A stretch of DNA of 64,000 nucleotides, from IMG/VR virus record IMGVR_UViG_641736216_000007; one strand, given 5' to 3'. This document shows positions 7,486 through 56,918 of the stretch, piece by piece. Every line of letters starts with the position of its first letter. The stretch's first letter is position 1. Below the pieces are notes generated by a model that ran no database searches, was not told the origin of the DNA, and saw nothing but the letters and a program-made list of their open reading frames with translations. Source of the DNA: a virus. Its lineage: Duplodnaviria; Heunggongvirae; Uroviricota; Caudoviricetes. Position numbers and translations under genes: made by a program.

Positions 7486-8487
7486 ATGAAATCAAAAACT
7501 AAAAAAGTAATAAAATCAATATTTATTTTATTACTTATAGTAATAATGTTTATTGTTAGCTTCTTTACATCTTATACATTATCTAATAATAAAATCAAAA
7601 CAAAAGAGATAAAAGAAGATGCTATAAGTACAGAATCAAAAGAAAATAAATTTAAAAAAATAAATGGGATTACAAATATTCTCCTTTTAGGGACAGATGA
7701 AAGAAGTTCTAATGTAACAACAAGAACTGATACTATGATAATTCTAACTATAGACTCTGTAAACAATAAAATCAAACTAACTTCTCTTTTTAGAGATGCT
7801 TTAGTTAATATTCCAAACCATAATAAAGGAAAACTTAATCATTCTTATGCTTATGGTGGAGTAGACCTCTTAGAAAAGACTATTGAAGAAAACTATAACT
7901 TAACAATAGATAAATATGCTTTAGTTAATTTTAATGATTTTGTAAAAATAATAGATTTACTTGGTGGAGTTGAAGTTGAAATAAAAGAAGCTGAACTTAA
8001 AGACTTTAACAAACATCTAAAGGATATACCTAACAGCTCTAAAGAAATAACTTCTCCAGGGATAAAAACTCTTACAGGAGCTCAAGCATTGTCTTACACA
8101 AGAATAAGGTATAATTCTGGTGGGGAACAAGGAAGAACAGAGAGACAAAGAAAAGTTATTAGTTCTATGGCTAATAAAATGAAACATATTAGTATATTTA
8201 AATATCCAGCTATATTAAATTCAGTAATTAAATATATTGATACTAATTTAAGCTTTAAAGATATATTAAATATATTATATACAGCTAATAAAATAAATTT
8301 TAATGAAATTGAAACATTATCTATTCCTTTTGAAGAACTTTCTAAGTGTGGTAAATATAAAAATTATGGATGGGTTTTTCGAACTGATTTAGAATTAACA
8401 TCTGAAATATTAAATAATTATATATTTAAAGACATCCCCATTAACTTGAGTAATATAAATAAAAGAAACCTTATATTTATAGAGTAA
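7486..8487 (+). CDS. LytR-CpsA-Psr (LCP) family cell-envelope phosphotransferase
   Basis: N-terminal TM anchor, then NILLLGTDERS...RTDTMIILTID...LTSLFRDALVNIP...NHSYAYGG...IDKYALVNFNDFVKIIDLLGGVEV, which is the canonical LCP core. Confidence 0.85.
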   Translation: MKSKTKKVIKSIFILLLIVIMFIVSFFTSYTLSNNKIKTKEIKEDAISTESKENKFKKINGITNILLLGTDERSSNVTTRTDTMIILTIDSVNNKIKLTSLFRDALVNIPNHNKGKLNHSYAYGGVDLLEKTIEENYNLTIDKYALVNFNDFVKIIDLLGGVEVEIKEAELKDFNKHLKDIPNSSKEITSPGIKTLTGAQALSYTRIRYNSGGEQGRTERQRKVISSMANKMKHISIFKYPAILNSVIKYIDTNLSFKDILNILYTANKINFNEIETLSIPFEELSKCGKYKNYGWVFRTDLELTSEILNNYIFKDIPINLSNINKRNLIFIE

Positions 8488-9137: not shown

Positions 9138-12100
9138 CTATTTCTTCTTTCTATTAAAGAATAAACCTACTAAAGATACTATTATTAAACTTAAAAAGAT
9201 AAATATTCCTTTATCTCCAGTAGAAGGATTATTCTCATCATTACTTTCATTATTGTTATATCCCTCAGAGTTATTGTTAGTACCATTTCTTTCTTCATTA
9301 TCAGGATCGTCTCTATAAATATATTTATTGTTTTCATCATCATCTTGTTTATATTGTTGTTGGATTTCTATATTCCCATTAGGTCTTATTATCGCTCCAT
9401 TTTTAGGTATTTCAATACTTCCATCTGATTTTATTATAATACTATTAGGAGGAACTACAATATTCCCTTCACCATCTATAGATGGTACTTTTCCATCTTC
9501 ACTTGGTCTTACTATTATACCTCCTGGCGTTTCTATACTACCATCTGGTTTTACTACATTTCCATTTTTATCTATATAAATATCCTTTTGCCCATCTCCA
9601 TCTTGATCTTTATCTATATTAGGTAAATTACTTGGAGGTAAACCTTCTTCATCCTGATCTGGTTGATTTGGTTTAGGTGGTATATGGTCATTATCTTCAT
9701 CTTCATTATCATTTTCGCCCCAGTCTGGATCTGGATTAGGCTTTTCTCCATCTGGATTTCCCCAATTTCCTTCATATACATAAACTGCTCTTCCACAATA
9801 AGAGGTATTCCCATCACTGTCAGTTACTTTGTAAGTAAGATAATAAATTCCTGGTTTTAAAGTGTTTACATATCCACTAAATTTTAATTTATTAGTAATA
9901 TATCCATCTTCCTCGTCATATACAATTATGCTATCATATGGATTAAATTCGCTTCCTACGGCTATATATGTAGGATATGCATATATTTGAGGGAATGCAC
10001 CATTTCCTTCCCAGTCTGGGCTTGGTTCCCCTGTTTCAGGACAATCTATATTGTTTGGAATAACATGTACTACTCTATTCCATCTAACTCTGTTGTCTCC
10101 TGAATCTCTTATAGAATAATTTACTATATAATCCCCTACTTTATTTGTATCTAAATTAGTTGTATATGTTACTTTAGAAGTTAAGTCGCCATCTTCTTCA
10201 TCTGTTACTTTTATTCCACTCATGACATCGTATTTATTGCCTACTTTTATATAAACTTCATCTGCATAATTTACTACAATAGGAGAATTATCAATTTTAT
10301 TAGGTTTTTCATTAGGAATATTTTCATTGTAATCTGCAACAACTATATTGCATGTTTCTTCTGTTAATTGACCTTTAAAATCCATAACACTATAGTTAAG
10401 AGTATATTCTCCTGTTTTATTTGCATCAACAAATCCATTAATTTTAATGTATCCAGTTAAATCTTCTCCAGCATAATCATAGGCTTTTATTCCTTCTAAT
10501 ACATTAAATTTACTATCTATCATAATCACTCTATTTTTTACACCTTCTATTGTTGGAGGTATAAGTTCATTTTCTTCATTGTTAATTTCCCCCAATTCAT
10601 AATGGACAAGTTGACCAGCATTCCCATAAGTATCATATGGGATAAAATGAATGTATTTATAATCTTCAGTATTAAATTCTATTGTATCCTTAGAAACAGA
10701 AGTTTTTATCGTTCCTGTATCTAAATTGTCTTCTCTTTTATTACTAAGTTTCCATTTAAAGTATTCAACTTCTCCTCCAAAATCTGTTCCTACATCCCAA
10801 TCTCTTCCTTCCTCATCGGTCATATCTCTTATTACAGTGTTGTCTTCTTTTAATCTCGTTCTAACCTGGTATGTTTCAGATACTCCTCTATCAACAGCAT
10901 CTATATTTAATTTTAAATAAGTATTATCATTGATATCTTTTCTTAAAAATTTATTACTGTTTAAATTGTTACCTTCTAAAACATCCATATTTTTATCTAT
11001 ATTTTCATCCACATTATTTTTATTTTCTAAATCGTTATATTCTAAAAAATTTTCTTCATCTATATTTTCTTCTTCTTCGTAATTTTCTTCATCTATGTTA
11101 TTTTCCTCTTCCTTTATTTCTGTTATGCCATTTATTTTTGGTCCAAAAATGTCTTTTGTATCTGTATCTGTAAAGCTTAGATCCTCTGTATAACCTATGG
11201 TTGTATAATATCCTTCCATGCTATTCCATTTTCGAACTTCATAAAAAACATCATCTCCTAAAACATTTTTATCCCAAGATATATCTACATTATTGTCTTC
11301 TTTATTAGGAGTAACTTTTATCTCCATATCTCCATGCACAAGGATATTTCTTTTTACTTCTCTTATATTCCCTTGACTATCCTCCACTTTATAAATTAAC
11401 TGGTATTTGCCATTTTTATTTGTATCAACTGAACCTATTATTTGTATTTTATTTGTTATATCTCCATCTTCCACATCATAAGCAGTTACTCCAGCAAGAG
11501 GATTAAAAGATTCTCCCTCTTTCACTCTTTTTGATGTTAAACCTTTAATAACAGGGATATAATTAGTATCATATTTGCCTGTTATTAGATGATGTATTGT
11601 CTTACTTACATTTCCATTCTTGTCTATTGCTTTAATGTGCAAGAATTTAGATTTATTATTTTTTATATCTATATCTTCTGCATTCTTTATATTAACAAAA
11701 TTCTTAACTTCTGTATTTTCTTTTTCATCTATAGCATAACTAAACCCAGCTAACCCTGATGTAACTTTACCATTTCTAATCTCGCTTGAATTTACCACAT
11801 TATTATCCTTGTCTAAAGCTTCCACAAAGTATCTATATGTTGTTCCTAAGTCCTTAGATATAACTTTAAGCTTAATATTATCTGAGCTGTCTATATCCTT
11901 ATTCAATTTTCTTAATATTTCTTTACTTAAAGAAACAACTTTTCTCGTTTTAATAGAATCTTCATTTATTTCTCCTAAATATGTTATAGCAGGAGAACTT
12001 GTATCTGTAGCAGTATTATCTATAAACTGTGTATCATTAAATGTCCCTTTTTCTTCAAAAGAAAATCCATTTTCATTTGTTCTATAAAGAACATATTTAA

Positions 12101-15100
12101 CAGCATTTTTAACAGGAGTCCAATTAACTTCTAAATTGTTATTCAACTCTGTTATGTCAATTTTCATATCTCCAATTACATGGACTTTTACAGTTTCCTC
12201 AGATTCTAATCCTTTACTATCTACAACTGTATATTTTACTTCATATACTCCTTTTTTAGTATTGTCAATTTCGCCTTCAATATTTATTTTATCAGTTAAG
12301 TTTCCATCTTCAAAATCGTAGGCAGACACACCCTCTAATTTATCAAAATTTTCTCCTAAATTAATAACTCTATTCCTACCTGGGACAGTTATTATTGGTT
12401 TATTGTTATAAGTATCATCTGAGAGTTTTATGTGTTTAGTTTCAGATTTGTTCCCTTTATTATCAATAGCATAAATATGAAGATAAGTATTATCTGTTAC
12501 ATTTTTAAACTCGAATTTACCATCTGTATTATTAACTTCTCCATTAATTTCTGTATTTGGATTTTCATCAACCTCATAATAGTATCCTTTAAACCCAGAA
12601 ATTGCAGTTGTCTTAACTATATTAGAATATGCAGTTTGGTAATCATCTTCATCATAACTTTCAACCTTATACTCATAATCCGAACCAATATCTTCAGTGA
12701 AAAACTCCATTTTAGCAGTTCTTTCTTTATTTAATATTAGAGAATATTCCATTTTCGGTGGAACTTTATCTTCTGCTAAATAACCACTAAGTATATTTTC
12801 TCTTAGATTGTCTTTAACTATCTCAAAAGAATCTTTTTCTTTTCTTAAAACTTTATAGTAATCAGCATTTTTATAATCATTCCAATTTAAAGTTATATTA
12901 TCATCTTTATTTTCTAAATTTAAAACAATATCTTGCTTAGATACCATATTGTCTATCTTTACACTGTCTTCATATCTATATACTCCATCAGAAGAACCAT
13001 TATCCATGTTTTCAAATTCTACTACAAATCCCTCTATGTCAGTCCAGACTGGATCTGGACTATTAACAGTGTCATTCCAAAGTCCACCTGAATTTTTAAT
13101 TGAAGACATATAATCTTCAGTCCCTCCTAAATTATTTGGTTCCCCAACACACCAATTTGTAAATTTGACTGGTTCACCTGTAACCCATTTCCATTTACCT
13201 TCTTCTTCCTCATCTGTTGCTCCGAGCCAAACTGTTTTCGTAGTTAAACAGTTAAATAAATCTAATTCATATTTAGACTTGATGGTAGCTAAATGCCCTT
13301 TTAAACCTCTGTATTCCATTTTTTCGGCTCTCTCTTTTGCATTTTTCCAAGTTATCCTTTTATCTTCTATAAATTGGTAGTAGTTCCCATTTTGAGGATT
13401 ATATATTATATCATCAACACTATTATTTTGCAGTCTTACATTAAATATAAAGCTTGTGCTATTGTCATGTTCAATTTTAATGGATTTTATTAGTTCTTCA
13501 GCTTCTTCAGTTGTATAATTTTCATTTAATATTATCTGTCGTTCTTTAGAATGTTTTTCTATCCCCTTATCTAAATATTTAATAGTCATACTGCTATTAA
13601 ATCCTTCACTTATATATAGCTTCATTCCATTTATTAACTCATCACTATTATTTGTAATAGATGCATTAGGAAATGTAGCAATAAATCTTTTTTTATCAGG
13701 TTCGCCTAATTTAATGTTCAAATAATCCAAATTTTCTTTTACGATTATTTCTTTTATAATTTTACTTTCTTGATTTTTACTATCTTTAACACTATACTCT
13801 ATACTCCATTTACCAAGAATATTTGTATCAAATTCATCAACTATTTTATTATCAGGATTTTTTATTACTACATTAATATCTTTAGTTAAATCTCCATCAT
13901 AATCATCTATGGCATTAATACCTTTCATAATATCAAACACTTTACCTTGTTCTATAGAAGTATTTCCTCCAACATTTAAAACTGGAGGTAAATCTTCAAA
14001 TATTCCAGCAATTGGAAGTGTAACCACTTCACTTTTATTTCCTGCTTTATCTACTGATACTATATGCACATATAACTTACTTGCTAATTCTTTAGCAGAT
14101 ATAAAACCATCTGTACTATTTACAACATCACCTAAAGAGATTGATGGTACAGAGCTATTACTTACTTCATAGCTAAACCCTTTAAATCCAGATTTTATTT
14201 CCACCTTTTCTTTATTTGATATATGTGTTATATCTCCATATTCAGAAATTCCTTCAATATAGTATTCATAAACAGAAGAAATATCTTCTGAATTAAAATT
14301 AATCCCTTGCTTTATTCCAGAGTTAAATAATTCATATGTTGGTGCTGTAGGTTTATTTATGTCTTTTTTATCTTCTTCAAAGTAAGTATCTTTTTGTTCT
14401 TTAATTATTTTAAAATCTTCTTCTTTTTCTTTTAATAAAATCTTATAATGGTCTATATCTTTGATATTATTCCAATCAAGCATAACCTTATTTTTATTCT
14501 TTTCAAAGAATGCATTTAAAACAATATCTTGTTTACATTCAATTGGTTTAATAGTTGCAGTATCTTCATACTTAAATTTATCTAAAGTATTAGGATAAGG
14601 CAGTTTTTCATCTAAGCCAAATTCTACAATATATCCATCTATTTTTCCCCCACTTGCTATATTAAAATCATCATCCCATAATCTCTGACTATCATTATAA
14701 GAAATAATATAATGTTGTTGTCCTAAATAATTATCTGGTCTACCAGGATACCAATTTGTGTAAATAAATGGTTCTTTTGTAACCCATTCCCATTTACCTT
14801 CTTCTTTTTCATCTGTACCCCCAAGCCATATACAATTAGCAGTTAAATTGTGTATTACTTCTTGTTCATAGGCTGAAGTTATTGTTGCTAAATATCCTCG
14901 AACACCTAAAAGTTCTTGTTTTTCTGCATCTACTTTTGCATCTTTCCAAGTTATACCTGGAGCAGAAATGAATTTATAATAATGATTATTTTCATAATTA
15001 TAAACTATATCATCAACTTCGTTTTTTCCTAATTTTACTGTAAATTTAAATTCTGTATTATTTTTATGTTCAATTTTTATAGATTTTACTAACTCTTCTG

Positions 15101-17147
15101 CTTCATTGAGGCTAAATTCTTTATTTATTTCTATTCTTTGATCTGTAGATTCTTTCTCTACGCCATTTAAAGTATAATGTATTTTAAATGAGTCTTTATC
15201 AAAAAACTCAGGAAAATACATTTTTAAACCATCTATTTTTTGTTGATCATCAACAGAATTTATTTTCGCATCAGGAAATTTCACGTATTTACTTGTAACA
15301 AGTTCTTTTCCTAAATCTATACTAACATTGAAATCTTTAACGACTTTTAGTGTTCTTAAATAGACTGTAGTATTATCTCCACTGTCTTTTACAGTATATT
15401 TAATTGTCCATTTTCCAAGTATACTTGTATCTAATTCAGATACTTTCTCTCCATTTGGATTCGTTATTTCAACATTTATTTTATTCGTCAAATCTCCATC
15501 TATAAAATCAGATGCTGTTACTCCAGCCATAACATCAAATTTATTGTTTTGTAAAATATCTACATTTGCACCCACTTTTAATTCAGGTGATTCATCTTTA
15601 AATATTTCTAATTTAACATCTTCATTTATATTACTATATCGAAGATACAGATTTCTCATATCTAAAGTAGATGAGCTAACAAATTTAATCTCATCATAGT
15701 AACCAGGAGCTAAATTGACCATTTCAGCTTCGTTTGAAGAATGTTTTCCTATATCTGTCCAAGTTCCATTCTTTAATCCTTTTACTATGATAATACTATT
15801 TCCATTTAAAAAATAGGCTCCATTTATATAAAGTTCTTTTGTATTCTTTAAAACTAATTGATTATCTGATCCAGATATAAAATATCCGCTACTTCCACTA
15901 AATACATTTTCTGCTGTATACTTATCATCCAAGGAATTCCCTTGTACTAATACTCCTTTTGGAACATCTTCCATAAAAGAAAAATTATCTGGCAATAATG
16001 TTATTTTTACATTATTCTCGACCTTATTATCATGATAAATTTTTAAACTTCTAATTATTTCATTTAATTCAGATTCATTACTTACAGTAATTTCACTATC
16101 TCCTTCTTTTTCATTATATTTACCATTTTGCGTATAAGATATTTTATTTTTATTACTACTGTTTTTAAAATTAATTAAAAGTTTTGCATTATCTCCTTTA
16201 GCTGATGCTTCTGTAAAAGAAATACTACCATCATTATTAATGCTTTTTTCCCCTAAATTAAGACTATATTCTGAACGATTGTAATTTATTTTTTCTCTAT
16301 TACTTTCTTCATTAAATTCTAATTCAGATATAGTACAAGAATCTACCCCAGAATGAGCTTGTTCTATTCGAATACCTTCATACTCTCCAGCTGTGACGCT
16401 TACTGTCTTTTTACTTTCATTTTTTTCAACCTCTGGAGTACCCTCACCTATTTTTGTCCAGCTACCATTTTTTAGTCCTTTTATAATAAATTTTTTATTT
16501 GCTTTAATAAGCACATTTTCTATATAAGTTTTATCTTCAAATAAAATAGTAAAAGTGCTATTGTTTTTATTTATTGCTCCATAGAAACTATCATTATTTC
16601 CATCTACAGCTCTTTCAGCTTTATATAATCTTGAAGGTACTCCTTCTACACTTTTATAAATTGGTAATCCACCTAATATAATATCAAATCCTAATTTTTT
16701 ATTATTTTTTGTATCTATCCTTAAAGTTTTCAAAACCTCATTTAATTCATTTTGCGTTCTAATAGGTATCTTTATATTTTTACCAATTAAAGTATTTTCT
16801 ACTGAATTTAAACTATAAGTAATAGTTACATTTTCGTATACATTTCTATTAAAATCAAATCGTAAATAAGTTGGATTATCTACTATTCCTTTTGCTTCTG
16901 GAAAAGTTAAAATACCATTTGTATCTACATACTTTCCCATATCTAATGAAAAACTTTCACTACTTTTCTCTTTGCCTTCGTTTTGTGTTTCTTTATTTAT
17001 AGAGTTATTCTCATTGTAAATTATTTGATTGTTACTATTTTTCATGTCTGCAAGTACATTATATGGCAAATTGGAACTTAGAATTGATGCAGAAAGAAAA
17101 ATCGAAATTATTTTCTTATTATTCACAAAACACACTCCTTTTTTCAA
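9138..17147 (-). CDS. Giant cell-surface adhesin (2669 aa). Signal peptide, multiple DUF5011/Ig-like domains, two C-type lectin-like domains and a C-terminal NPSTG sorting signal.
   Basis: - N-terminal signal peptide.
- Repeated Ig-like modules (GDLTNKINVE...GKWTIKYTVKDS).
- Two CTLD signatures: WLGGTDEKEEGKWEWV...NWYPGRPDN and WLGATDEEEEGKWKWV...NWCVGEPNN.
- A ~700-aa internal duplication.
- Asp/Asn/Pro-rich stalk.
- C-terminus NPSTG, hydrophobic segment, then RKKK. Confidence 0.85.
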   Translation of the reverse strand: MKKGVCFVNNKKIISIFLSASILSSNLPYNVLADMKNSNNQIIYNENNSINKETQNEGKEKSSESFSLDMGKYVDTNGILTFPEAKGIVDNPTYLRFDFNRNVYENVTITYSLNSVENTLIGKNIKIPIRTQNELNEVLKTLRIDTKNNKKLGFDIILGGLPIYKSVEGVPSRLYKAERAVDGNNDSFYGAINKNNSTFTILFEDKTYIENVLIKANKKFIIKGLKNGSWTKIGEGTPEVEKNESKKTVSVTAGEYEGIRIEQAHSGVDSCTISELEFNEESNREKINYNRSEYSLNLGEKSINNDGSISFTEASAKGDNAKLLINFKNSSNKNKISYTQNGKYNEKEGDSEITVSNESELNEIIRSLKIYHDNKVENNVKITLLPDNFSFMEDVPKGVLVQGNSLDDKYTAENVFSGSSGYFISGSDNQLVLKNTKELYINGAYFLNGNSIIIVKGLKNGTWTDIGKHSSNEAEMVNLAPGYYDEIKFVSSSTLDMRNLYLRYSNINEDVKLEIFKDESPELKVGANVDILQNNKFDVMAGVTASDFIDGDLTNKINVEITNPNGEKVSELDTSILGKWTIKYTVKDSGDNTTVYLRTLKVVKDFNVSIDLGKELVTSKYVKFPDAKINSVDDQQKIDGLKMYFPEFFDKDSFKIHYTLNGVEKESTDQRIEINKEFSLNEAEELVKSIKIEHKNNTEFKFTVKLGKNEVDDIVYNYENNHYYKFISAPGITWKDAKVDAEKQELLGVRGYLATITSAYEQEVIHNLTANCIWLGGTDEKEEGKWEWVTKEPFIYTNWYPGRPDNYLGQQHYIISYNDSQRLWDDDFNIASGGKIDGYIVEFGLDEKLPYPNTLDKFKYEDTATIKPIECKQDIVLNAFFEKNKNKVMLDWNNIKDIDHYKILLKEKEEDFKIIKEQKDTYFEEDKKDINKPTAPTYELFNSGIKQGINFNSEDISSVYEYYIEGISEYGDITHISNKEKVEIKSGFKGFSYEVSNSSVPSISLGDVVNSTDGFISAKELASKLYVHIVSVDKAGNKSEVVTLPIAGIFEDLPPVLNVGGNTSIEQGKVFDIMKGINAIDDYDGDLTKDINVVIKNPDNKIVDEFDTNILGKWSIEYSVKDSKNQESKIIKEIIVKENLDYLNIKLGEPDKKRFIATFPNASITNNSDELINGMKLYISEGFNSSMTIKYLDKGIEKHSKERQIILNENYTTEEAEELIKSIKIEHDNSTSFIFNVRLQNNSVDDIIYNPQNGNYYQFIEDKRITWKNAKERAEKMEYRGLKGHLATIKSKYELDLFNCLTTKTVWLGATDEEEEGKWKWVTGEPVKFTNWCVGEPNNLGGTEDYMSSIKNSGGLWNDTVNSPDPVWTDIEGFVVEFENMDNGSSDGVYRYEDSVKIDNMVSKQDIVLNLENKDDNITLNWNDYKNADYYKVLRKEKDSFEIVKDNLRENILSGYLAEDKVPPKMEYSLILNKERTAKMEFFTEDIGSDYEYKVESYDEDDYQTAYSNIVKTTAISGFKGYYYEVDENPNTEINGEVNNTDGKFEFKNVTDNTYLHIYAIDNKGNKSETKHIKLSDDTYNNKPIITVPGRNRVINLGENFDKLEGVSAYDFEDGNLTDKINIEGEIDNTKKGVYEVKYTVVDSKGLESEETVKVHVIGDMKIDITELNNNLEVNWTPVKNAVKYVLYRTNENGFSFEEKGTFNDTQFIDNTATDTSSPAITYLGEINEDSIKTRKVVSLSKEILRKLNKDIDSSDNIKLKVISKDLGTTYRYFVEALDKDNNVVNSSEIRNGKVTSGLAGFSYAIDEKENTEVKNFVNIKNAEDIDIKNNKSKFLHIKAIDKNGNVSKTIHHLITGKYDTNYIPVIKGLTSKRVKEGESFNPLAGVTAYDVEDGDITNKIQIIGSVDTNKNGKYQLIYKVEDSQGNIREVKRNILVHGDMEIKVTPNKEDNNVDISWDKNVLGDDVFYEVRKWNSMEGYYTTIGYTEDLSFTDTDTKDIFGPKINGITEIKEEENNIDEENYEEEENIDEENFLEYNDLENKNNVDENIDKNMDVLEGNNLNSNKFLRKDINDNTYLKLNIDAVDRGVSETYQVRTRLKEDNTVIRDMTDEEGRDWDVGTDFGGEVEYFKWKLSNKREDNLDTGTIKTSVSKDTIEFNTEDYKYIHFIPYDTYGNAGQLVHYELGEINNEENELIPPTIEGVKNRVIMIDSKFNVLEGIKAYDYAGEDLTGYIKINGFVDANKTGEYTLNYSVMDFKGQLTEETCNIVVADYNENIPNEKPNKIDNSPIVVNYADEVYIKVGNKYDVMSGIKVTDEEDGDLTSKVTYTTNLDTNKVGDYIVNYSIRDSGDNRVRWNRVVHVIPNNIDCPETGEPSPDWEGNGAFPQIYAYPTYIAVGSEFNPYDSIIVYDEEDGYITNKLKFSGYVNTLKPGIYYLTYKVTDSDGNTSYCGRAVYVYEGNWGNPDGEKPNPDPDWGENDNEDEDNDHIPPKPNQPDQDEEGLPPSNLPNIDKDQDGDGQKDIYIDKNGNVVKPDGSIETPGGIIVRPSEDGKVPSIDGEGNIVVPPNSIIIKSDGSIEIPKNGAIIRPNGNIEIQQQYKQDDDENNKYIYRDDPDNEERNGTNNNSEGYNNNESNDENNPSTGDKGIFIFLSLIIVSLVGLFFNRKKK

Positions 17148-17256: not shown

Positions 17257-17499
17257 ATGATAAAAAAAATAATAAAGGAGAAAAATATGAATCAACTTAA
17301 ATTATCTAAAAAAATAGTAAATCATCTAATAAAAGCTAATATAGACTCCATTGAAAGTTTAAAAACAATGACATCTAACGATCTTTTAAAAATAAATGGT
17401 ATTGGACCTAAAAGCTTAGAAGAAATAAAACAAGCCCTTAGTTTACTCACTAAACCAGATAATATTACAGAAGGGATATTTACAAAAAAAGATATTTAA
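17257..17499 (+). CDS. Small HhH protein resembling the RNA polymerase alpha-subunit C-terminal domain
   Basis: LKLSKKIVNHLIKANIDSIESL...DLLKINGIGPKSLEEIKQAL fits the alpha-CTD pattern LSxRxxNxLxxxxIxTxxDL...GxKSxxEI. Confidence 0.45.
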   Translation: MIKKIIKEKNMNQLKLSKKIVNHLIKANIDSIESLKTMTSNDLLKINGIGPKSLEEIKQALSLLTKPDNITEGIFTKKDI

Positions 17500-21063: not shown

Positions 21064-22602
21064 TTATATCATACTAATTTCTCTCTTATCTTTTTTTAAA
21101 GGTTCTGTAATTAATCCTAATTCTAATAATAACTTTGAATAAGATCCATATTTCTTAACTAAATATTTTATATGAACACCGCTGTCTTTAATATTTTGAA
21201 TAGTTGGGATTTTACCCAAAGATTGCGTCATTTCTAAAATTGCTCTCTTACTTTCTTCCAACTCTATATCTGTATATCTATTTTTTAAAGGCTCTGTAAT
21301 TAATCCTAATTCTAATAATAACTTTGAATAAGATCCATATATATTAATCAAGGAATTTATATGAACTCCATTATCTTTAAGGTTTTGAATAGTTGGGATT
21401 TTACCTAAAGATTGTGTCATTTCTAAAATTATTTTTTTACTTTCTTTTAGTTCTGTATTTGTATACTTACTTCGTTTTGGTAATTTAAGTATTGCTTTTA
21501 TTTCTCTCCAACTACCAAATTTCCTAAAAAATGTAGCAGTTTTTATTCCATATTCCTTAAGTTCACGTATAATTGGGGTTTTATCAAGTATCTGGTAAAC
21601 TTCCATTATTTCTTTCATAGTTTTATCTTTAAATTTTTTATCTTTTTCATCTTTAATAACTTTAGCTTTCTCTACAATAGCTTTCAAGTTAAGAACATCT
21701 ATCATGTTTTCATAACTTCCATAATAAGAAAATAAAATTTTAACTGGAATCTTATAAAAAACAAGACGAGCCATACTTGGTACTTTAATTTTATTTTTTG
21801 TTAATTTTATTATTTCATTATTAAATACTTTTATATCATATTCTTCTATTTTTAATTTTTTATATGCTTCTTTAAGGCTTCCATAAGTCTTTTTTAGTAG
21901 ATTAACATCTATTCCTCTTTTTTTCATAAGGAGCTCAGATGGTACCCTCTTGTATTTATCTTCATTTTTAATGTCTAATATTTCTTTTTTTATTTTTTCT
22001 ATCTTCTCTTCATCAAACTTAGAGACAATTGAATCTAAATTCAATTCTTTTTTTATTTTTTCCCAACTACCCATTACTCTCATTAACTTATTTATTTTTA
22101 TTCCATTTTCCAATAGTTGCTGGTAAGTTGGAATACATTTCTTGTTATTTGTCAAATCTAATATTTTTTCTATTATTCCCTCTATCTCTTTTATATTTGA
22201 TACTTTTTCCAAAAGAATTGCATTTTTATCCTTATTTTTTTCAAGGAAAGGATTTTCTATTACTATATCTGTTTTTAACTTATTCTTTACAGTACTCCAT
22301 TTACCATATTTTTTTATTAAAGGTTTTATATTTATATTATTTTCTTTAAGTTCTTCTCTATTAGGTATTTTACCTAATCTATCTCTTAATTCTTCAACTT
22401 CTTTTAATATGTCTTCTGCATTATTTGTTTTATCTATAAAGCCAAGATTTTCTAAAACTTTATTCCAACTTCCATAAATCTGAAATAATTGTTTTACATC
22501 AGAATTATTTAAATCACTGAAGCTTGGCACATAACCATTTTCACTTATAAAATCATTTATTATATTTTTTGTATATTCTACATATCCACTTGGTACAAAC
22601 AT
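21064..22602 (-). CDS. Homing-endonuclease-associated-repeat (HNH_repeat-like) protein (512 aa)
   Basis: About 8 repeats of the (Y/F)GSW(n)..L..LGL type (YGSWNKVLENLGF, MGSWEKIKKELNL, FGSWREIKAILKL, YGSYSKLLLELGLITEP). Contains a ~190-bp tandem DNA duplication at 21093-21472. Confidence 0.55.
   Translation of the reverse strand: MFVPSGYVEYTKNIINDFISENGYVPSFSDLNNSDVKQLFQIYGSWNKVLENLGFIDKTNNAEDILKEVEELRDRLGKIPNREELKENNINIKPLIKKYGKWSTVKNKLKTDIVIENPFLEKNKDKNAILLEKVSNIKEIEGIIEKILDLTNNKKCIPTYQQLLENGIKINKLMRVMGSWEKIKKELNLDSIVSKFDEEKIEKIKKEILDIKNEDKYKRVPSELLMKKRGIDVNLLKKTYGSLKEAYKKLKIEEYDIKVFNNEIIKLTKNKIKVPSMARLVFYKIPVKILFSYYGSYENMIDVLNLKAIVEKAKVIKDEKDKKFKDKTMKEIMEVYQILDKTPIIRELKEYGIKTATFFRKFGSWREIKAILKLPKRSKYTNTELKESKKIILEMTQSLGKIPTIQNLKDNGVHINSLINIYGSYSKLLLELGLITEPLKNRYTDIELEESKRAILEMTQSLGKIPTIQNIKDSGVHIKYLVKKYGSYSKLLLELGLITEPLKKDKREISMI
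21093..21472. repeat. Two tandem ~190-bp copies inside 21064..22602
   Basis: Unit 21093-21282 is about 90% identical to 21283-21472. It encodes the duplicated block ...SKRAILEMTQSLGKIPTIQN(L/I)KD(N/S)GVHI...YGSYSKLLLELGLITEPLK. Confidence 0.7.
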
Positions 22603-36132: not shown

Positions 36133-36428
36133 GAGGAATTTACCCCTCTTTCTGTTAGGCAAGAGTCTTTAACTCATATCTGTAACCATCACCTTTTTGT
36201 ATTAGTTTTAAATATCTATGATTAACAAATTGCAATCCTTGATAAAATTATTAAGGATTAATATCATATTACACTGTTTGTACCCATAAACTGGAGAAGC
36301 ATTTGTAGGTGTTGTAACCTTAATAATGTAGTTTAAAACTGAATCTGGTCAATACGACTTGGAGATAACTTCAAGCCTACCTCTTTAGAGGTGGGTTATT
36401 GACTTAGACATCCTCCCTTATCCTAATT
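36133..36428 (-). repeat. Copy B of the ~290-bp repeated element, inverted relative to copy A
   Basis: Reverse complement aligns with 8531..8818 at about 88-90% identity, with small indels. Ends 37 nt upstream of the start of 35472..36095. Confidence 0.55.
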
Positions 36429-54314: not shown

Positions 54315-56918
54315 TTAAACTTTATTTTCATTATTATTAGTTTCAGTATCATCATTTTTATTATTGTTATTTTCTTGGCTGTCCTCAGTGTTGTTACTTT
54401 CATTATCTGATTCATTGTTTAATTCATTATTTAAATCTTCATTTTTAATTGATGTATCTTTTTCTACATTCTCTTGGACATTATTTTTAATCTGATTCTT
54501 AATTTTTTCTTGATATTCTCTCTCTTTTTTCTCTTTTAAATATTCTTCTTCTCTTTTTTCCCTATTTAATTGTTCCTTAATTTCATTAAAATTATCATTT
54601 AAAAATCTATATTCTTCTATAAGCTCATCATATATAGATTTTCTTTTTACATTATTTATACTATTTTTTACTTTTAAAAGAATTTTATCTATTTCTTTTA
54701 CTTGTTTTAAATCAATTAATTTATATTCTCTTAAACTTTCTATATCATTTTTAGCTTTTATTTCTCTAATAGTCTCTTCTTCTTCACTTAAACCAAATAT
54801 AATTCTGTATTCTAATTCTTTTAATCTCTCTTTTTGAACTTCAGCTTCATTATTCTTTCTATTTTTTTCAAGATCTAATCTCTCTTTTTTAATTGCGAAT
54901 TCTTGAGGTCCTAATGTCTTTAACTTACCATTTTTACTATAAACCTGATCTGGCTTTTTAAAATCTACATCTTCTTTACCTTCATGAAGTCCACTCATAA
55001 ATTTATTCCATATATATTTAACTGAATTTGACTCTAATGAAGATTGGTATGAAGGAATGTCATCTCCTATCCATACAGACATGGTATAATAAGGAGTATA
55101 TCCACAAAACCAAGCATCTTTATTATCATTTGTTGTTCCTGTTTTACCAGCTTGGTATTTATAATTATTAAGCTTAGCTTTATGTGAAGTTCCATGTTCT
55201 TTTTCAATACTACCTTTCAAAACGTCTGTCATTAAATAAGATGCGCCTGAATCATATACCCTTTTTTTATTTTTATTATTTTTGTAGATAATTTCTCCAG
55301 TTGAAATTTTTTTAATTTCTTTTACATTTGTAGGTTCTATAAATTCTCCATTCCTTGCAATTGTTGAATATGCACTTGCCATTTCAGTTGTCGTCGCTCC
55401 TCTTGTTAACCCTCCTAAAGCTATAGTAGGCGTTCTGTCTGTTGAAGTTAGATATTTAAAATTCATTTTAGCTAAATATTTGAGAGATTTCTCAACTCCA
55501 TTTAGTTTAGTTAACCTAAATGGTATAGTATTTGTAGAAATCTCAGTAGCATATCTCAAGGTTATACGTCCTTTATATCCATTATACCAGTTAGAAGGAC
55601 CTTTATTAATTGGTCTATCTTCAAACTCGTCATCTGGAGAATATCCTTTTTCAAATGCAGGTAAATACGAAATCAAAGGCTTCATAGTTGATCCAGGTTG
55701 TCTTGCTCCTATAGAAGCTCTATTAAATGTGTTTGATTTGCCTTCTTGAGTCCTACCTCCAACTATTGCTATTACTTCTCCAGTGTTGTTATCAATAACA
55801 GTAGAAGCAGATTGTTTCATATACAAACTATTAGATTTATTTATTTTTTTATATTTAATCATTTCCTTATTTATAATAGACTGAAGCTTATTCTGTAAAT
55901 CGAAATTAATACAAGTATTAATTTTATATCCACCATTAAGTAGTTCTTCTCTGCATTTTTTATATTCTGAAGAGTATAGATTTGAGTATTTTTTTCTTTG
56001 CTCTTCATTGTCAAACATATATCTGAATTGAAAACCATTATTTTTCATAATTTCTTCAGTAGATTTTTGTATTGCATACTCAACAGCATAATCATTAATA
56101 TTATTATCATAATATTTTTTTTTGACATTTAACTCAAGTATTTCTTTTTTTGCATTTAATTGTTCTTTTTCTGTTATAAATTTAGATTCATACATTTTAT
56201 CAATTATATTATTTCTTCGTTTTATAGCATTTTCTTTATTTAACATTGGATCATATAAAGAAGGATTATTTGGAATCCCAGCTAATAAAGCTATTTGAGA
56301 TACATTTAAATCTTTTGTATTTTTTCCAAAATAATACATTGATGCTGTTTCTACCGAATAACACCCATGGCCAAAATTAATATTATTAACATAAAATTCT
56401 AATATATCACTTTTTGAAAATTTTTTTTCTATTTCTTGAGCTATTACTGCTTCCTCAAGTTTCCTCCATATATTTCTATCCATAGATAAGAATATGTTTT
56501 TTGCTAATTGCTGGGTTATTGTAGAACCTCCTTGAAGGCTACCACCTTTTAATATAACCACTCCTGCCCTAATTAAAGCCTTAAAATCAATGCCGTTATG
56601 TTCATAAAACCGTTTATCCTCTACTGCAATGAAAGCTTTAAAAACATATGGGTTTATATCTTTATATTTCTGATAATCATATTCTCTAACCTTAAACTCT
56701 TTCAGTAATTTACCATTATTATCATATATCTTTGTTGTTTCCCTGTTATTAAAAGAATTCCTATCCATACTTTCAGTTTTACTATAAGCTCTTTCTATAT
56801 AGTTACTAATGTCATTTTTTAAATAAAGGTATATGAAAATGGAAGCTATAAGAGATATAATTAAAAAAATAAAAATAGATATAATAATAATTTTTATTTT
56901 TTTATTTTTTTTACTCAA
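54315..56918 (-). CDS. Class A penicillin-binding protein (bifunctional transglycosylase/transpeptidase, PBP1A-like) with a long low-complexity C-terminal tail
   Basis: GT51 motifs (EDKRFYEHNGIDF; GGSTITQQLAKN). Transpeptidase motifs STMK (SxxK), SNT and KTGTT. N-terminal TM anchor. Confidence 0.9.
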   Translation of the reverse strand: MSKKNKKIKIIIISIFIFLIISLIASIFIYLYLKNDISNYIERAYSKTESMDRNSFNNRETTKIYDNNGKLLKEFKVREYDYQKYKDINPYVFKAFIAVEDKRFYEHNGIDFKALIRAGVVILKGGSLQGGSTITQQLAKNIFLSMDRNIWRKLEEAVIAQEIEKKFSKSDILEFYVNNINFGHGCYSVETASMYYFGKNTKDLNVSQIALLAGIPNNPSLYDPMLNKENAIKRRNNIIDKMYESKFITEKEQLNAKKEILELNVKKKYYDNNINDYAVEYAIQKSTEEIMKNNGFQFRYMFDNEEQRKKYSNLYSSEYKKCREELLNGGYKINTCINFDLQNKLQSIINKEMIKYKKINKSNSLYMKQSASTVIDNNTGEVIAIVGGRTQEGKSNTFNRASIGARQPGSTMKPLISYLPAFEKGYSPDDEFEDRPINKGPSNWYNGYKGRITLRYATEISTNTIPFRLTKLNGVEKSLKYLAKMNFKYLTSTDRTPTIALGGLTRGATTTEMASAYSTIARNGEFIEPTNVKEIKKISTGEIIYKNNKNKKRVYDSGASYLMTDVLKGSIEKEHGTSHKAKLNNYKYQAGKTGTTNDNKDAWFCGYTPYYTMSVWIGDDIPSYQSSLESNSVKYIWNKFMSGLHEGKEDVDFKKPDQVYSKNGKLKTLGPQEFAIKKERLDLEKNRKNNEAEVQKERLKELEYRIIFGLSEEEETIREIKAKNDIESLREYKLIDLKQVKEIDKILLKVKNSINNVKRKSIYDELIEEYRFLNDNFNEIKEQLNREKREEEYLKEKKEREYQEKIKNQIKNNVQENVEKDTSIKNEDLNNELNNESDNESNNTEDSQENNNNKNDDTETNNNENKV

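What the first reader, a model, noticed from the sequence alone, without database searches (positions are those of the whole stretch)
9138..17147. 2669-aa adhesin combining bacterial C-type lectin domains, DUF5011/Ig-like modules and an NPSTG (SrtB-type?) sorting signal
Two canonical CTLD cores (W.G.TDE.EEGKW.WV...NW..GEPNN) are embedded in a ~700-aa module that is itself duplicated. Ig-like domains and a D/N/P-rich stalk follow. The C-terminus is NPSTG, a hydrophobic stretch, then RKKK. NPxTG is the motif used by sortase B substrates (for example NPKTG in Bacillus anthracis IsdC), not the LPxTG motif of housekeeping sortase. No sortase is encoded in the window. CTLDs on a sortase-anchored Firmicutes adhesin suggest a glycan-binding host or biofilm ligand.
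Basis: partly seen in the sequence, partly recalled or inferred. Interest (0 to 1): 0.55.

Follow-up and report, generated by a model that had tools for sequence, protein, structure and literature searches.

The report
Plasmid-borne multi-lectin surface adhesin, C. difficile
This is a real 2662-residue cell-surface adhesin gene on a 300-kb Clostridioides difficile megaplasmid; it carries four sugar-binding domains on a long stalk, and its wall-anchoring signal (NPSTG) differs by one residue from the motifs the species' only sortase is known to cut.

Summary
Window 9138..17126 (-) encodes a 2662-aa secreted protein. Pfam finds 2 C-type lectin domains (CTLDs) and 7 PF16403 (ex-DUF5011) Ig-like modules. 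The C-terminus is NPSTG-D, 17 hydrophobic residues, then NRKKK.

New findings:
- The window is 100% identical to a 300,869-bp C. difficile BI1 (RT027) plasmid.
- The N-terminus adds two CBM32/discoidin-like domains. An unclassified beta-sandwich ("X") precedes each of the four lectin domains.
- The duplicated module is about 534 aa, not about 700.
- CTLD2 keeps the full EPN...E...WND calcium/sugar site in all 53 CTLD2 copies scored. CTLD1 is degenerate (RPD/Q/WDD).
- All 53 full-length homologues are from Clostridioides. Those found in the plasmid collection lie on plasmids of 62-306 kb. All end in [N/S/P]PxTG-[D/E], and N, S and P interchange at the first position.
- No adhesin-bearing plasmid encodes a sortase. 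C. difficile has one chromosomal sortase, SrtB. It cleaves (S/P)PxTG peptides in vitro; NPxTG has never been tested.

Verdict: an uncharacterised, probably SrtB-anchored, plasmid-borne multi-lectin fibrillar adhesin. It is a new variant of a known kind and of moderate interest.

The parts
9138..17126 (-). CDS of the adhesin (2662 aa plus stop), identical to P0001 / RefSeq WP_009899514.1 'immunoglobulin-like domain-containing protein'
17135..17140 (-). Shine-Dalgarno sequence AAGGAG, 8 nt upstream of the GTG start at 17126
   Evidence: read directly from the sequence
17049..17126 (-). Sec-type signal peptide, aa 1-26 (MNNKK / IISIFLSASILSS / NLPYNVLA|D)
   Evidence: Read from the sequence; no predictor was run.
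15996..16949 (-). X1 (aa 60-151), discoidin/CBM32-like GBD1 (aa 162-277) and X2 (aa 288-377)
15624..15968 (-). Discoidin/CBM32-like GBD2 (aa 387-501)
14004..15572 (-). Repeat module 1: Ig1 (aa 519-597), X3 (602-699), CTLD1 (702-841; RPD...Q...WDD) and FB1 (858-1041)
12417..13970 (-). Repeat module 2: Ig2 (aa 1053-1131), X4 (1137-1232), CTLD2 (1235-1376) and FB2 (1390-1570)
13068..13145 (-). Calcium/sugar-binding loop of CTLD2: GEPNN LGG TEDY ... LWNDT (aa 1328-1353). EPN, E and WND are invariant in all 53 CTLD2 copies scored.
10587..12380 (-). Ig3-FB3-Ig4-FB4 (aa 1583-2180). FB4 carries an acidic E/N/D-rich insert.
9771..10541 (-). Ig5, Ig6 and Ig7 (aa 2196-2452), all PF16403 modules
9231..9734 (-). 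D/N/P/G-rich stalk, probably wall-spanning (aa 2465-2632), with DGSIE.P..G.II.P-like short repeats
9141..9230 (-). Cell-wall sorting signal: NPSTG (9216-9230), P2' Asp, a 17-residue hydrophobic segment and an NRKKK tail
7486..8487 (+). Neighbouring LCP (LytR-CpsA-Psr) family gene, convergent with the adhesin. The pair is conserved in the related 306-kb Clostridioides plasmid. A functional link is not shown.

Best explanation
The gene encodes a giant fibrillar adhesin on a roughly 300-kb C. difficile megaplasmid.

Proposed mechanism:
- The protein is exported by Sec through a 26-residue signal peptide.
- Its C-terminal sorting signal (NPSTG-D, 17 hydrophobic residues, NRKKK) holds it in the membrane.
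- The chromosomal class B sortase SrtB, the only sortase of the species, then most probably cleaves between T and G and links it to peptidoglycan.
- A D/N/P-rich segment crosses the wall.
- About 1100 residues of Ig-like (PF16403) and unclassified ~185-aa 'FB' modules (no family or fold match) project a distal head.
- The head holds four lectin-type units, each preceded by the same small beta-sandwich (X): two CBM32/discoidin-like domains and two C-type lectin domains.

CTLD2 has an intact EPN/E/WND site. It is predicted to bind sugars with equatorial 3- and 4-OH groups (Man, GlcNAc, Glc, Fuc) in a calcium-dependent way. CTLD1 has lost three of the five calcium ligands.

The result would be multivalent glycan-mediated attachment to host mucus or epithelium, or to other bacterial cells.

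Shown here: the domain composition, motif conservation, plasmid location, and absence of a sortase on the plasmids.
Inferred: SrtB processing, calcium dependence, sugar type and the biological target.
For: Gene and domains:
- ORF, start codon and translation.
- Lectin_C x2 above the Pfam gathering score and PF16403 x7.
- CTLD2 matches solved animal CTLDs by sequence: mannose receptor 2.5e-14, MRC2 7e-13, MBP 7.5e-11, DC-SIGN. Its EPNN...E...WND aligns with MRC2's EPNN...E...WND.
- EPN...E...WND is invariant in 53/53 CTLD2 copies while neighbouring residues vary.
- X domain: AF2 pLDDT 94, a beta-sandwich.

Sorting signal:
- 53/53 full-length homologues carry [N/S/P]-P-x-T-G followed by D (52) or E (1), a hydrophobic segment and a basic tail, at the same distance from the C-terminus. 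Flanking sequence is variable.
- The closest homologues swap NPSTG for SPSTG.
- SPSTG, SPKTG and PPKTG peptides are cleaved by C. difficile SrtB in vitro (PMC4155245). Validated substrates read SPKTGD / PPKTGD (PMC4155245, PMC5569036).
- B. anthracis SrtB needs a P2' Asp (PMC11987632).
- srtB is conserved in all five lineages, including RT027 (PMC4155245). BI1 is RT027 (PMC4498292 abstract).

Location:
- 100% match to NC_017177.1.
- The identical protein appears in at least 45 assemblies and never on a contig longer than 1 Mb.

No sortase on the plasmids:
- None is annotated on the 300-kb plasmid or on pCd5_2.
- A class B sortase tblastn probe hit P. sordellii pCS1 plasmids (positive control) but none of the six adhesin-bearing plasmids.
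Against: - C. difficile SrtB did not cleave NPQTN, NVQTG or LPETG peptides (PMC4155245, PMC4371152).
- Molecular dynamics placed NPKTG less favourably than (S/P)PKTG (PMC5118464).
- In vivo, only SPKTG and PPKTG proteins are proven substrates. The SPSTG protein CD0183 is not processed, although that was attributed to its weak hydrophobic segment and short tail, which this protein does not share (PMC5569036).
- NCBIfam sorting-signal models did not fire.
- The CTLDs have only 1-2 cysteines, so the canonical disulfides are absent.
- There are no expression, localisation or binding data.
- The discoidin-like copy in the window is below the Pfam threshold (18.9 versus 27.8 bits), and its model is only moderately confident (pLDDT 67).
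Confidence: 0.6

Rival explanations
1. It is a conjugation (mating-aggregation) adhesin. The lectin head binds surface polysaccharide of recipient Clostridioides cells. This stabilises donor-recipient pairs for the plasmid's type IV secretion system, as PrgB does for pCF10 and the thioester adhesin does for pLS20. It is a sub-hypothesis about the ligand and is compatible with the best explanation's anatomy.
For: - All six homologues found in the plasmid collection sit on Clostridioides plasmids of 62-306 kb.
- The 300-kb plasmid carries PrgI-family, VirB4-like, coupling-protein, replication-relaxation and Tad-pilus genes.
- In pCd5_2 the homologue lies in the same orientation about 1.6 kb downstream of the MobP2 relaxase gene, in the same gene cluster. 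That plasmid has VirD4-like and pLS20_p028-family genes.
- Related 136-145-kb plasmids include the putative conjugative toxin plasmid pHSJD-312.
- Gram-positive T4SSs often rely on sortase-anchored adhesins (PMC10588982, PMC8092201, PMC7726212).
Against: - In the megaplasmid the gene is more than 180 kb from the T4SS genes.
- MOB-suite calls five of the six adhesin-bearing plasmids, including both examined in full, non-mobilizable.
- In P. sordellii pCS1-1, inactivating the plasmid's srtB had little effect on transfer (PMC5770547).
- No polymer-adhesin or thioester domain is present.
- No transfer data exist for any of these plasmids.
Confidence: 0.3
2. It is a host-colonisation adhesin. The lectin head binds intestinal mucin or epithelial glycans and gives plasmid-bearing strains an advantage in the gut.
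For: - CBM32 and EPN-type CTLD specificities (Gal/GalNAc; Man/GlcNAc/Fuc) fit mucin and epithelial glycans. The top structural matches are CBM32s of mucin-degrading enzymes from C. perfringens, Akkermansia and Bifidobacterium.
- The identical protein recurs in at least 45 assemblies.
- Authors of the toxin-plasmid papers listed this gene class as 'putative virulence factors' (PMC7454092, PMC6141592).
Against: - Homologues are equally present in environmental cryptic Clostridioides from soil and pond water.
- No experimental data exist.
- The head architecture varies greatly between homologues: 4-10 X domains and 2-6 discoidin-like domains.
Confidence: 0.35
3. It is not sortase-processed. NPxTG is a poor or non-substrate of C. 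difficile SrtB. The protein then stays tethered by its C-terminal transmembrane helix, or is shed, as shown for unprocessed CD3392 in a srtB deletion mutant.
For: - No cleavage of NPQTN or NVQTG by SrtB (PMC4155245, PMC4371152).
- Molecular dynamics disfavour N at P4 (PMC5118464).
- CD0183 and CD2768 carry cleavable motifs yet are not anchored in vivo. Unprocessed CD3392 stays in the membrane (PMC5569036).
Against: - Strict conservation of P, T, G and the P2' acidic residue in 53/53 homologues, within an otherwise variable low-complexity region, is hard to explain without a sortase.
- N, S and P interchange at P4 between close orthologues.
- A strong hydrophobic segment and a four-residue basic tail are present, unlike CD0183 and CD2768.
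Confidence: 0.25
4. It is an enzyme (the UniProt name of one homologue is 'Chitinase B') or a virion/tail-fibre protein of a phage-plasmid.
For: - Homologue P0048 is named Chitinase B.
- A survey lumped large C. difficile elements into 'phage/megaplasmid' clusters (PMC6807378).
Against: - No glycoside-hydrolase or other catalytic Pfam domain at E<=0.01.
- The 'chitinase' similarity is only to the Ig-like linker domains of Moritella Chitinase 60.
- No capsid, terminase or tail genes are annotated on the 300-kb record.
- A signal peptide plus a cell-wall sorting signal is incompatible with a virion protein.
Confidence: 0.03

Closest known systems
C. difficile SrtB substrates on mobile elements and chromosome: CD0386 / CD3392 (on CTn1 / CTn7), CD2831, CD3246
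   Same: Same species. Each has a signal peptide and a C-terminal xPxTG-D motif, a hydrophobic segment and a basic tail. All are adhesin-like multidomain proteins, and CD0386 / CD3392 are also carried by mobile elements (PMC5569036, PMC4155245).
   Different: Those proteins use SPKTG or PPKTG and collagen-binding / CnaB-type domains, and are roughly 1000 aa or less. This one uses NPSTG, has lectin-type heads (CTLD, CBM32-like), is 2662 aa and is plasmid-borne. No canonical PPEP-1 site (NPPVP) was found.
Fibrillar adhesins (Monzon & Bateman; PMC8286594)
   Same: It has distal adhesive domains, a tandem stalk of Ig-like repeats, and a C-terminal Gram-positive anchor. NPxTG is one of the alternative motifs that survey accepted.
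   Different: By text search, neither Lectin_C nor PF16403/DUF5011 is named in that paper's main text. Four lectin units, each paired with an unclassified X domain, are not a described head.
Animal C-type lectin CRDs: mannose-binding protein, mannose receptor / MRC2 CTLD2, DC-SIGN
   Same: Significant sequence homology (E as low as 2.5e-14). CTLD2 has the WIGL-like core and an EPN-N-x-G-x-x-E-D ... WND loop matching the calcium site-2 ligands.
   Different: It is bacterial, lacks the conserved disulfides (1-2 Cys) and is embedded in a sortase-type adhesin. CTLD1 is degenerate (RPD/Q/WDD). In many homologues the long-loop region of CTLD1 is deleted.
PrgB (pCF10) and the pLS20 thioester adhesin: conjugation adhesins of Gram-positive plasmids
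   Same: All are large, sortase-signal-bearing surface proteins encoded by plasmids with type IV secretion genes (PMC10588982, PMC8092201).
   Different: No polymer-adhesin or thioester domain is present. The gene is not inside the transfer operon in the megaplasmid. No mating phenotype is known.
CBM32-bearing surface glycosidases and proteases of C. perfringens (NanJ, GH84C, ZmpB)
   Same: The N-terminal domains share the fold and a weak sequence signal with CBM32. The PF16403 Ig-like modules hit the 'F5/8 type C domain protein' PDB chains 7js4/7jrm/7jrl/5kdj (not established to be ZmpB — the ZmpB entries seen are 7jnb/7jfs).
   Different: There is no catalytic domain here. It is a pure binding protein.

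Membership tests
C. difficile SrtB substrate (cell-wall sorting signal as defined by Donahue et al. 2014) | N-terminal signal peptide | tested here: met
   MNNKK, a 13-residue hydrophobic core, then VLA|D. Read from the sequence; no predictor was run.
C. difficile SrtB substrate (cell-wall sorting signal as defined by Donahue et al. 2014) | (S/P)PxTG pentapeptide 17-45 residues from the C-terminus | tested here: not met
   The motif is NPSTG, starting 30 residues from the end. P4 is Asn, not Ser or Pro. Orthologues have SPSTG, SPKTG or PPKTG at the same position. NPSTG has never been assayed.
C. difficile SrtB substrate (cell-wall sorting signal as defined by Donahue et al. 2014) | Hydrophobic segment followed by at least 2 consecutive basic residues | tested here: met
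   IFIFLSLIIVSLVGLFF (17 aa) followed by NRKKK.
C. difficile SrtB substrate (cell-wall sorting signal as defined by Donahue et al. 2014) | A sortase encoded in the same cell | not testable with these tools
   The chromosome of the source strain is not available here. The literature says srtB is conserved in all five lineages including RT027 (PMC4155245). None is present on the plasmid.
C. difficile SrtB substrate (cell-wall sorting signal as defined by Donahue et al. 2014) | Cleavage between T and G and linkage to peptidoglycan | not testable with these tools
   This needs a peptide assay or cell fractionation of wild type versus a srtB deletion mutant.
C-type lectin domain (Pfam PF00059) | Profile score above the gathering threshold | tested here: met
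   CTLD1 scores 34.0 bits and CTLD2 45.2 bits against 22.6. PDB CTLDs match CTLD2 at E as low as 2.5e-14.
C-type lectin domain (Pfam PF00059) | Calcium site-2 / sugar ligands (EPN or QPD, Glu, WND) | tested here: met
   CTLD2 has EPN, E (at +8) and WND, invariant in 53/53. CTLD1 does not meet this: it has RPD, Q and WDD.
C-type lectin domain (Pfam PF00059) | Two conserved disulfide bridges | tested here: not met
   There are only 1 (CTLD1) and 2 (CTLD2) cysteines, and 0 in several homologues.
C-type lectin domain (Pfam PF00059) | Calcium-dependent carbohydrate binding | not testable with these tools
   This needs a glycan array with and without EDTA.
Bacterial surface Ig-like domain (PF16403, ex-DUF5011) | Profile match | tested here: met
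   7 copies, E=1.4e-76. One copy matches the Ig domains of Chitinase 60 at 1.8e-15.
CBM32 / F5/8 type C (discoidin) domain | Profile score above the gathering threshold | tested here: inconclusive
   The window copy scores 18.9 / 16.9 bits against 27.8 / 28.2. 4 of 13 family representatives match, best 1.8e-7.
CBM32 / F5/8 type C (discoidin) domain | Galactose-binding-domain-like beta-sandwich fold | tested here: inconclusive
Fibrillar adhesin | Adhesive domain(s), tandem stalk repeats and a surface anchor | tested here: met
Gram-positive conjugation adhesin (PrgB / pLS20 type) | Encoded within or next to the transfer genes of a conjugative plasmid | tested here: inconclusive
   In pCd5_2 it lies about 1.6 kb downstream of the relaxase gene, in the same cluster and orientation. 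In the megaplasmid it is more than 180 kb from the T4SS genes.
Gram-positive conjugation adhesin (PrgB / pLS20 type) | Polymer-adhesin or thioester domain | tested here: not met
   No such Pfam hit.
Chitinase (name given to homologue A0A386JC21) | GH18/GH19 catalytic domain | tested here: not met
   No glycoside-hydrolase domain in Pfam. Similarity is limited to Ig-like linker domains.

The most novel reading that the evidence does not exclude
Clostridioides plasmids carry a private class of SrtB substrates marked by Asn at P4 (NPxTG in 39 of 53 family members). Their lectin head, with the invariant EPN-type CTLD, recognises a Clostridioides cell-wall polysaccharide. The adhesin would then make donor and recipient cells clump and drive the spread of large plasmids, including toxin-bearing ones. 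The P4 Asn would tune how, or how fast, the single housekeeping SrtB processes plasmid cargo compared with chromosomal (S/P)PxTG proteins.
Probability: 0.15. Interest if true: 0.7.

Novelty: new variant of a known kind. Interest (0 to 1): 0.45.

Why it matters
C. difficile has few proven sortase substrates, and its adhesion mechanisms are poorly understood.

This family is found on plasmids of three size classes, one of which includes a plasmid carrying tcdB and cdtAB. It is the largest predicted surface protein on the two plasmids read in full. It carries a perfectly conserved mannose-type calcium/sugar site.

It also offers a clean test of SrtB specificity. The Asn-versus-Ser/Pro swap at P4 occurs naturally between close orthologues, so one peptide assay and one fractionation experiment would extend or limit the accepted (S/P)PxTG rule.

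If the ligand turns out to be a bacterial surface glycan, the protein would be a candidate mating adhesin for plasmids whose transfer has never been shown.

Tried and rejected
- Exact look-up of the 2669-aa TTG-start translation found nothing, because the start codon was wrong. The 2662-aa form is on record.
- Whole-protein self-BLAST returned only the self hit. A fragment-against-whole BLAST replaced it.
- A word-indexed homologue search with CTLD2 alone returned only 2 proteins and was uninformative.
- The exhaustive representative search gave 23,203 CTLD relatives. None of the top 150 apart from P0053, a member of this adhesin family itself, had a sortase-type signal; one had a PEP-CTERM-like tail. 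The ranking favours multi-CTLD proteins, so this is a weak test. The few named top hits were environmental archaeal MAGs.
- The scan of GTDB representative genomes found only CTLD-only hits in Poribacteria, Prolixibacteraceae, Pontiella and a rumen Clostridiales MAG. In that MAG the CTLD protein is N-terminally membrane-anchored, not sortase-type.
- A regex for the sortase TLxTC signature over six-frame ORFs of the whole plasmid gave only spurious hits.
- A search for the canonical PPEP-1 site (NPPVP) found none. Only HIPPKP (aa 2481-2486) has Pro at P1, P1' and P3'.
- No riboswitch or other Rfam family lies upstream of the gene. No terminator-like site was found downstream.
- The FB module has no Pfam hit and no PDB sequence relative.
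- Kang et al. 2020 on SrtB specificity (PMC7076211) is not held in the library.
- A phage origin was considered and rejected (see rivals).
Full report

The window holds a single 8-kb ORF at 9138..17147 on the minus strand.

The longest ORF starts at a TTG, but an AAGGAG Shine-Dalgarno sequence (17140-17135) lies downstream of that TTG and 8 nt upstream of the GTG at 17126. RefSeq and the protein collection both use that GTG. The resulting 2662-aa product is identical to P0001 / WP_009899514.1.

Pfam finds PF16403 Bact_surface_Ig-like (the renamed DUF5011) seven times (E=1.4e-76) and Lectin_C twice. Scored alone, the two CTLDs reach 34.0 and 45.2 bits against a gathering score of 22.6.

The C-terminus is NPSTG (aa 2633-2637; window 9216-9230), then Asp, a 17-residue hydrophobic run and NRKKK. 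It is preceded by a 168-aa stretch in which D, N, P, G, E and I make up 71% of residues.

**2. Where does it come from?**

The first 25 kb of the window match, at 100% identity and full length, a 300,869-bp circular record: 'Clostridioides difficile BI1 plasmid unnamed' (NC_017177.1). The window runs across that record's origin.

Small indels exist. For example, the class A PBP at 54315..56918 is intact in the window but split into two CDS in RefSeq. The window may therefore come from a near-identical sister plasmid. The identical protein is on record in at least 45 assemblies. Ten of those contigs are 0.2-1 Mb and none exceeds 1 Mb, and the neighbouring genes are the same.

The name 'pCDBI1' in the literature refers to a 45-kb phage-like plasmid with 66 ORFs (PMC12291638), so I do not use it for this record.

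I read the whole annotation of the 300-kb record. It shows:
- plasmid partition and replication genes;
- Gram-positive conjugation-type genes (PrgI family, VirB4-like ATPase, coupling protein, replication-relaxation protein, a large peptidoglycan hydrolase);
- a Tad-like pilus locus;
- type I-B CRISPR-Cas and CBASS;
- about 50 DUF4116 paralogues;
- a set of envelope genes (LCP, signal peptidase I, PBP, NlpC/P60, three CWB2 proteins).

It shows no phage structural genes and no sortase.

**3. Anatomy**

A fragment-against-whole BLAST and family HMMs built from the 55 retrieved proteins give a very regular plan:

| Segment | Residues |
|---|---|
| Signal peptide | 1-26 |
| X1, GBD1 | 60-151, 162-277 |
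| X2, GBD2 | 288-377, 387-501 |
| Ig1, X3, CTLD1, FB1 | 519-597, 602-699, 702-841, 858-1041 |
| Ig2, X4, CTLD2, FB2 | 1053-1131, 1137-1232, 1235-1376, 1390-1570 |
| Ig3, FB3, Ig4, FB4 | 1583-2180 |
| Ig5-Ig7 | 2196-2452 |
| Stalk | 2465-2632 |
| Sorting signal | 2633-2662 |

The duplicated module (Ig-X-CTLD-FB) has a period of about 534 aa at 31-54% identity, not about 700 aa.

- *FB module.* This roughly 185-aa module has no Pfam or PDB relative, and I could not fold it.
- *Ig-like modules.* They match the Ig linkers of Moritella Chitinase 60 (1.8e-15). That explains why one homologue is misnamed 'Chitinase B'. No catalytic domain exists.

**4. The lectin domains**

CTLD2 is homologous to solved animal CRDs: mannose receptor 2.5e-14, MRC2 7e-13, MBP 7.5e-11, CD23, SP-D, DC-SIGN.

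Its loop GEPNNLGGTEDY...LWNDT aligns with MRC2's FEPNNFRDSLEDC...RWNDS. It therefore keeps Glu and Asn of EPN, the Glu eight residues later, and Asn-Asp of WND. From my own knowledge of MBP-A, these are the five calcium site-2 ligands that also hold the sugar's 3- and 4-OH. EPN is the mannose/GlcNAc/fucose/glucose-type signature.

Across 53 CTLD2 copies, EPN...E...WND is invariant while neighbouring residues vary.

CTLD1 in this protein reads RPD...Q...WDD. Some homologues have QPD...E...WND, the galactose-type signature. In many others the whole long-loop region is deleted. CTLD1 is therefore evolving freely and is probably not a canonical calcium-dependent lectin here.

The canonical disulfides are absent, with 0-2 Cys per domain.

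CTLDs as such are common in prokaryotes. The exhaustive search found 23,203 representative clusters at E<=1e-3. Among the 150 best, none outside this family (P0053 is a family member) has a sortase-type tail, though this is a weak test.

**5. The sorting signal**

All 53 full-length homologues end in x-P-x-T-G followed by Asp (52) or Glu (1), a hydrophobic segment and a basic tail. The counts are NPETG 25, SPKTG 9, NPSTG 6, NPPTG 4, SPSTG 3, NPNTG 2, and NPDTG, SPDTG, NPKTG and PPKTG 1 each.

The sequence just upstream is unrelated between subfamilies. P, T, G and the P2' acidic residue are therefore under selection, as expected for a sortase site. The nearest relatives of the window protein (86% and 74% identity) carry SPSTG where it has NPSTG.

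What the literature establishes:
- C. difficile has one sortase, the class B enzyme SrtB, conserved in all five lineages including RT027 (PMC4155245).
- It cleaves SPKTG, PPKTG, SPSTG and SPQTG peptides between T and G.
- It does not cleave LPETG, NPQTN or NVQTG (PMC4155245, PMC4371152).
- Molecular dynamics rate NPKTG below (S/P)PKTG (PMC5118464).
- In vivo, only SPKTG and PPKTG proteins are proven substrates. The SPSTG protein CD0183 and the SPQTG protein CD2768 are not processed, which was ascribed to their weak hydrophobic segments and short tails (PMC5569036). The present signal has neither weakness.
- B. anthracis SrtB, whose motif is NPKTG, requires a P2' Asp (PMC11987632). This family conserves that residue.

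No paper in the library mentions NPSTG, NPETG or NPPTG as a sortase motif.

No sortase is annotated on the 300-kb plasmid or on pCd5_2. It found class B sortases on 32 plasmids, including the P. sordellii pCS1 family as a positive control. It hit none of the six adhesin-bearing plasmids.

**6. Distribution**

Every strong homologue is from C. difficile or cryptic Clostridioides species, from both clinical and environmental sources. In the plasmid collection the gene occurs on six Clostridioides plasmids of 62, 69, 136, 145, 301 and 306 kb. The 145-kb one is pHSJD-312, a putative conjugative toxin plasmid (PMC7454092, PMC6141592).

In pCd5_2 it lies about 1.6 kb downstream of the MobP2 relaxase gene, in the same orientation within that gene cluster, on a plasmid with VirD4-like, pLS20_p028-family and Tad genes.

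GTDB representative genomes contain no full-length relative.

The head is modular. Homologues have 4-10 X domains and 2-6 GBDs, but always 7 Ig modules and 2 CTLDs.

The published plasmid papers mention the gene only as a 'chitinase' or 'lectin-binding' putative virulence factor (PMC6141592, PMC7454092).

**7. Mechanism, and how sure I am**

Most likely (about 0.6 for the full chain, higher for 'surface adhesin'):
1. Sec export.
2. Retention by the C-terminal signal.
3. SrtB cleavage at T|G and attachment to peptidoglycan.
4. A wall-spanning acidic, proline-rich segment.
5. A long Ig/FB stalk.
6. A distal multivalent lectin head whose conserved EPN-type CTLD binds Man/GlcNAc/Glc/Fuc-type sugars with calcium.

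The target is undecided between host glycans and the surface polysaccharide of other Clostridioides cells (mating or biofilm). The strict plasmid association, and the precedent of PrgB and the pLS20 adhesin (PMC10588982, PMC8092201), make the second option a serious rival. Against it, srtB inactivation barely changed pCS1-1 transfer in P. sordellii (PMC5770547).

A further rival is that Asn at P4 prevents sortase processing, leaving a membrane-tethered or shed protein.

**8. Novelty and score**

The kind, a sortase-signal fibrillar adhesin, is well known, and the protein is already in databases under generic names. What is new:
- the four-lectin head (2 CBM32-like domains plus 2 CTLDs, each with an unclassified X domain);
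- its restriction to Clostridioides plasmids;
- the predominance of NPxTG in a species whose sortase is documented only for (S/P)PxTG.

I rate it a new variant of a known kind, interest 0.45.

Noticed in passing
window 36227-36403 (-): A full-length HEARO RNA (RF02033, the IscB-associated omega-RNA) scores 85.2 bits, above the gathering score. It lies between a 1069-aa hypothetical gene and a DUF4116 gene, with no intact IscB next to it. The plasmid record annotates two short IscB fragments and a TnpB elsewhere.
   Followed up: partly
window 7486-8487 (+): An LCP (LytR-CpsA-Psr) gene lies convergent with the adhesin, 650 bp from its 3' end. The pair is kept in the 306-kb plasmid of Clostridioides sp. 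ES-W-0016-02 but not in pCd5_2. In Actinomyces an LCP enzyme glycosylates a sortase substrate (my own knowledge), so a functional link is conceivable but untested.
   Followed up: partly
window 54315-56918 (-), 28024-29025 (+), 49146-50888 (+); NC_017177.1 38564-39088 and 61221-67346: The megaplasmid carries its own cell-envelope kit. It includes a class A PBP (transglycosylase plus transpeptidase; intact in the window, split into two CDS in RefSeq), an NlpC/P60 hydrolase, a Cu_amine_oxidN1 'stalk' protein, signal peptidase I, a glucosaminidase and three CWB2 cell-wall-binding proteins.
   Followed up: partly
NC_017177.1 whole record (loci L001-L007): The 300-kb element holds about 50 DUF4116 paralogues. 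Many form long same-strand arrays between 97 and 188 kb. It also carries type I-B CRISPR-Cas, a CBASS pair (DncV-like plus SAVED), ClpX, FtsH, LigA, NrdJ/NrdG and DnaE. MOB-suite calls it non-mobilizable although PrgI, VirB4-like, coupling-protein and relaxase-family genes are present.
   Followed up: no
homologues P0012, P0014, P0022, P0024, P0025 versus P0001 aa 702-841 (window 14604-15023): Within one orthologous family the first CTLD occurs in three states: QPD/E/WND (galactose-type), RPD/Q/WDD (this protein), and a form with the whole long-loop region deleted. This looks like a canonical-to-compact CTLD transition captured among close relatives.
   Followed up: partly
window 16674-16949, 15996-16265, 15030-15323, 13431-13718 (-): The 92-aa 'X' domain (consensus L.LG....I.FPNA.G...I.Y.LNG.E...I.I....EL.EVLKSLKI....I.L) has no Pfam family and no close solved structure. 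It always sits immediately N-terminal to a lectin-type domain, in 4-10 copies per homologue.
   Followed up: yes
window 9669-9686 (-), aa 2481-2486: HIPPKP in the stalk has Pro at P1, P1' and P3', like the sites of the C. difficile Pro-Pro endopeptidase PPEP-1, which releases CD2831 and CD3246. The canonical NPPVP is absent, and HIPPKP is not conserved outside the closest homologues.
   Followed up: partly
window 17257-17499 (+): A stand-alone 80-aa RNA polymerase alpha C-terminal-domain-like protein (PF03118, E=6e-12) is transcribed divergently from the adhesin promoter region. RefSeq annotates a 115-aa version. It may be a regulator.
   Followed up: no
window 57336-59930 (-) and 21064-22602 (-): One ORF is a fused Metallophos plus AAA_23/SMC_N protein, SbcCD-like, in a single 864-aa product. 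The other is a 512-aa protein with homing-endonuclease-associated HNH_repeat units.
   Followed up: no
NZ_CP045225.1 15637-16116: This is the only Clostridioides record in the plasmid collection with a class B sortase gene: a 42-kb 'plasmid' from a pig isolate, 44% identical to S. aureus SrtB. It does not carry the adhesin. I did not check whether it is a true plasmid or a chromosomal fragment.
   Followed up: no
literature versus record NC_017177.1: Papers use 'pCDBI1' for a 45-48-kb phage-like plasmid with 66 ORFs (PMC12291638). Another paper lists pCDBI1 among the megaplasmids (PMC6807378). The BI1 record matched here is 300,869 bp and unnamed. The naming is ambiguous and could mislead plasmid-typing studies.
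   Followed up: partly
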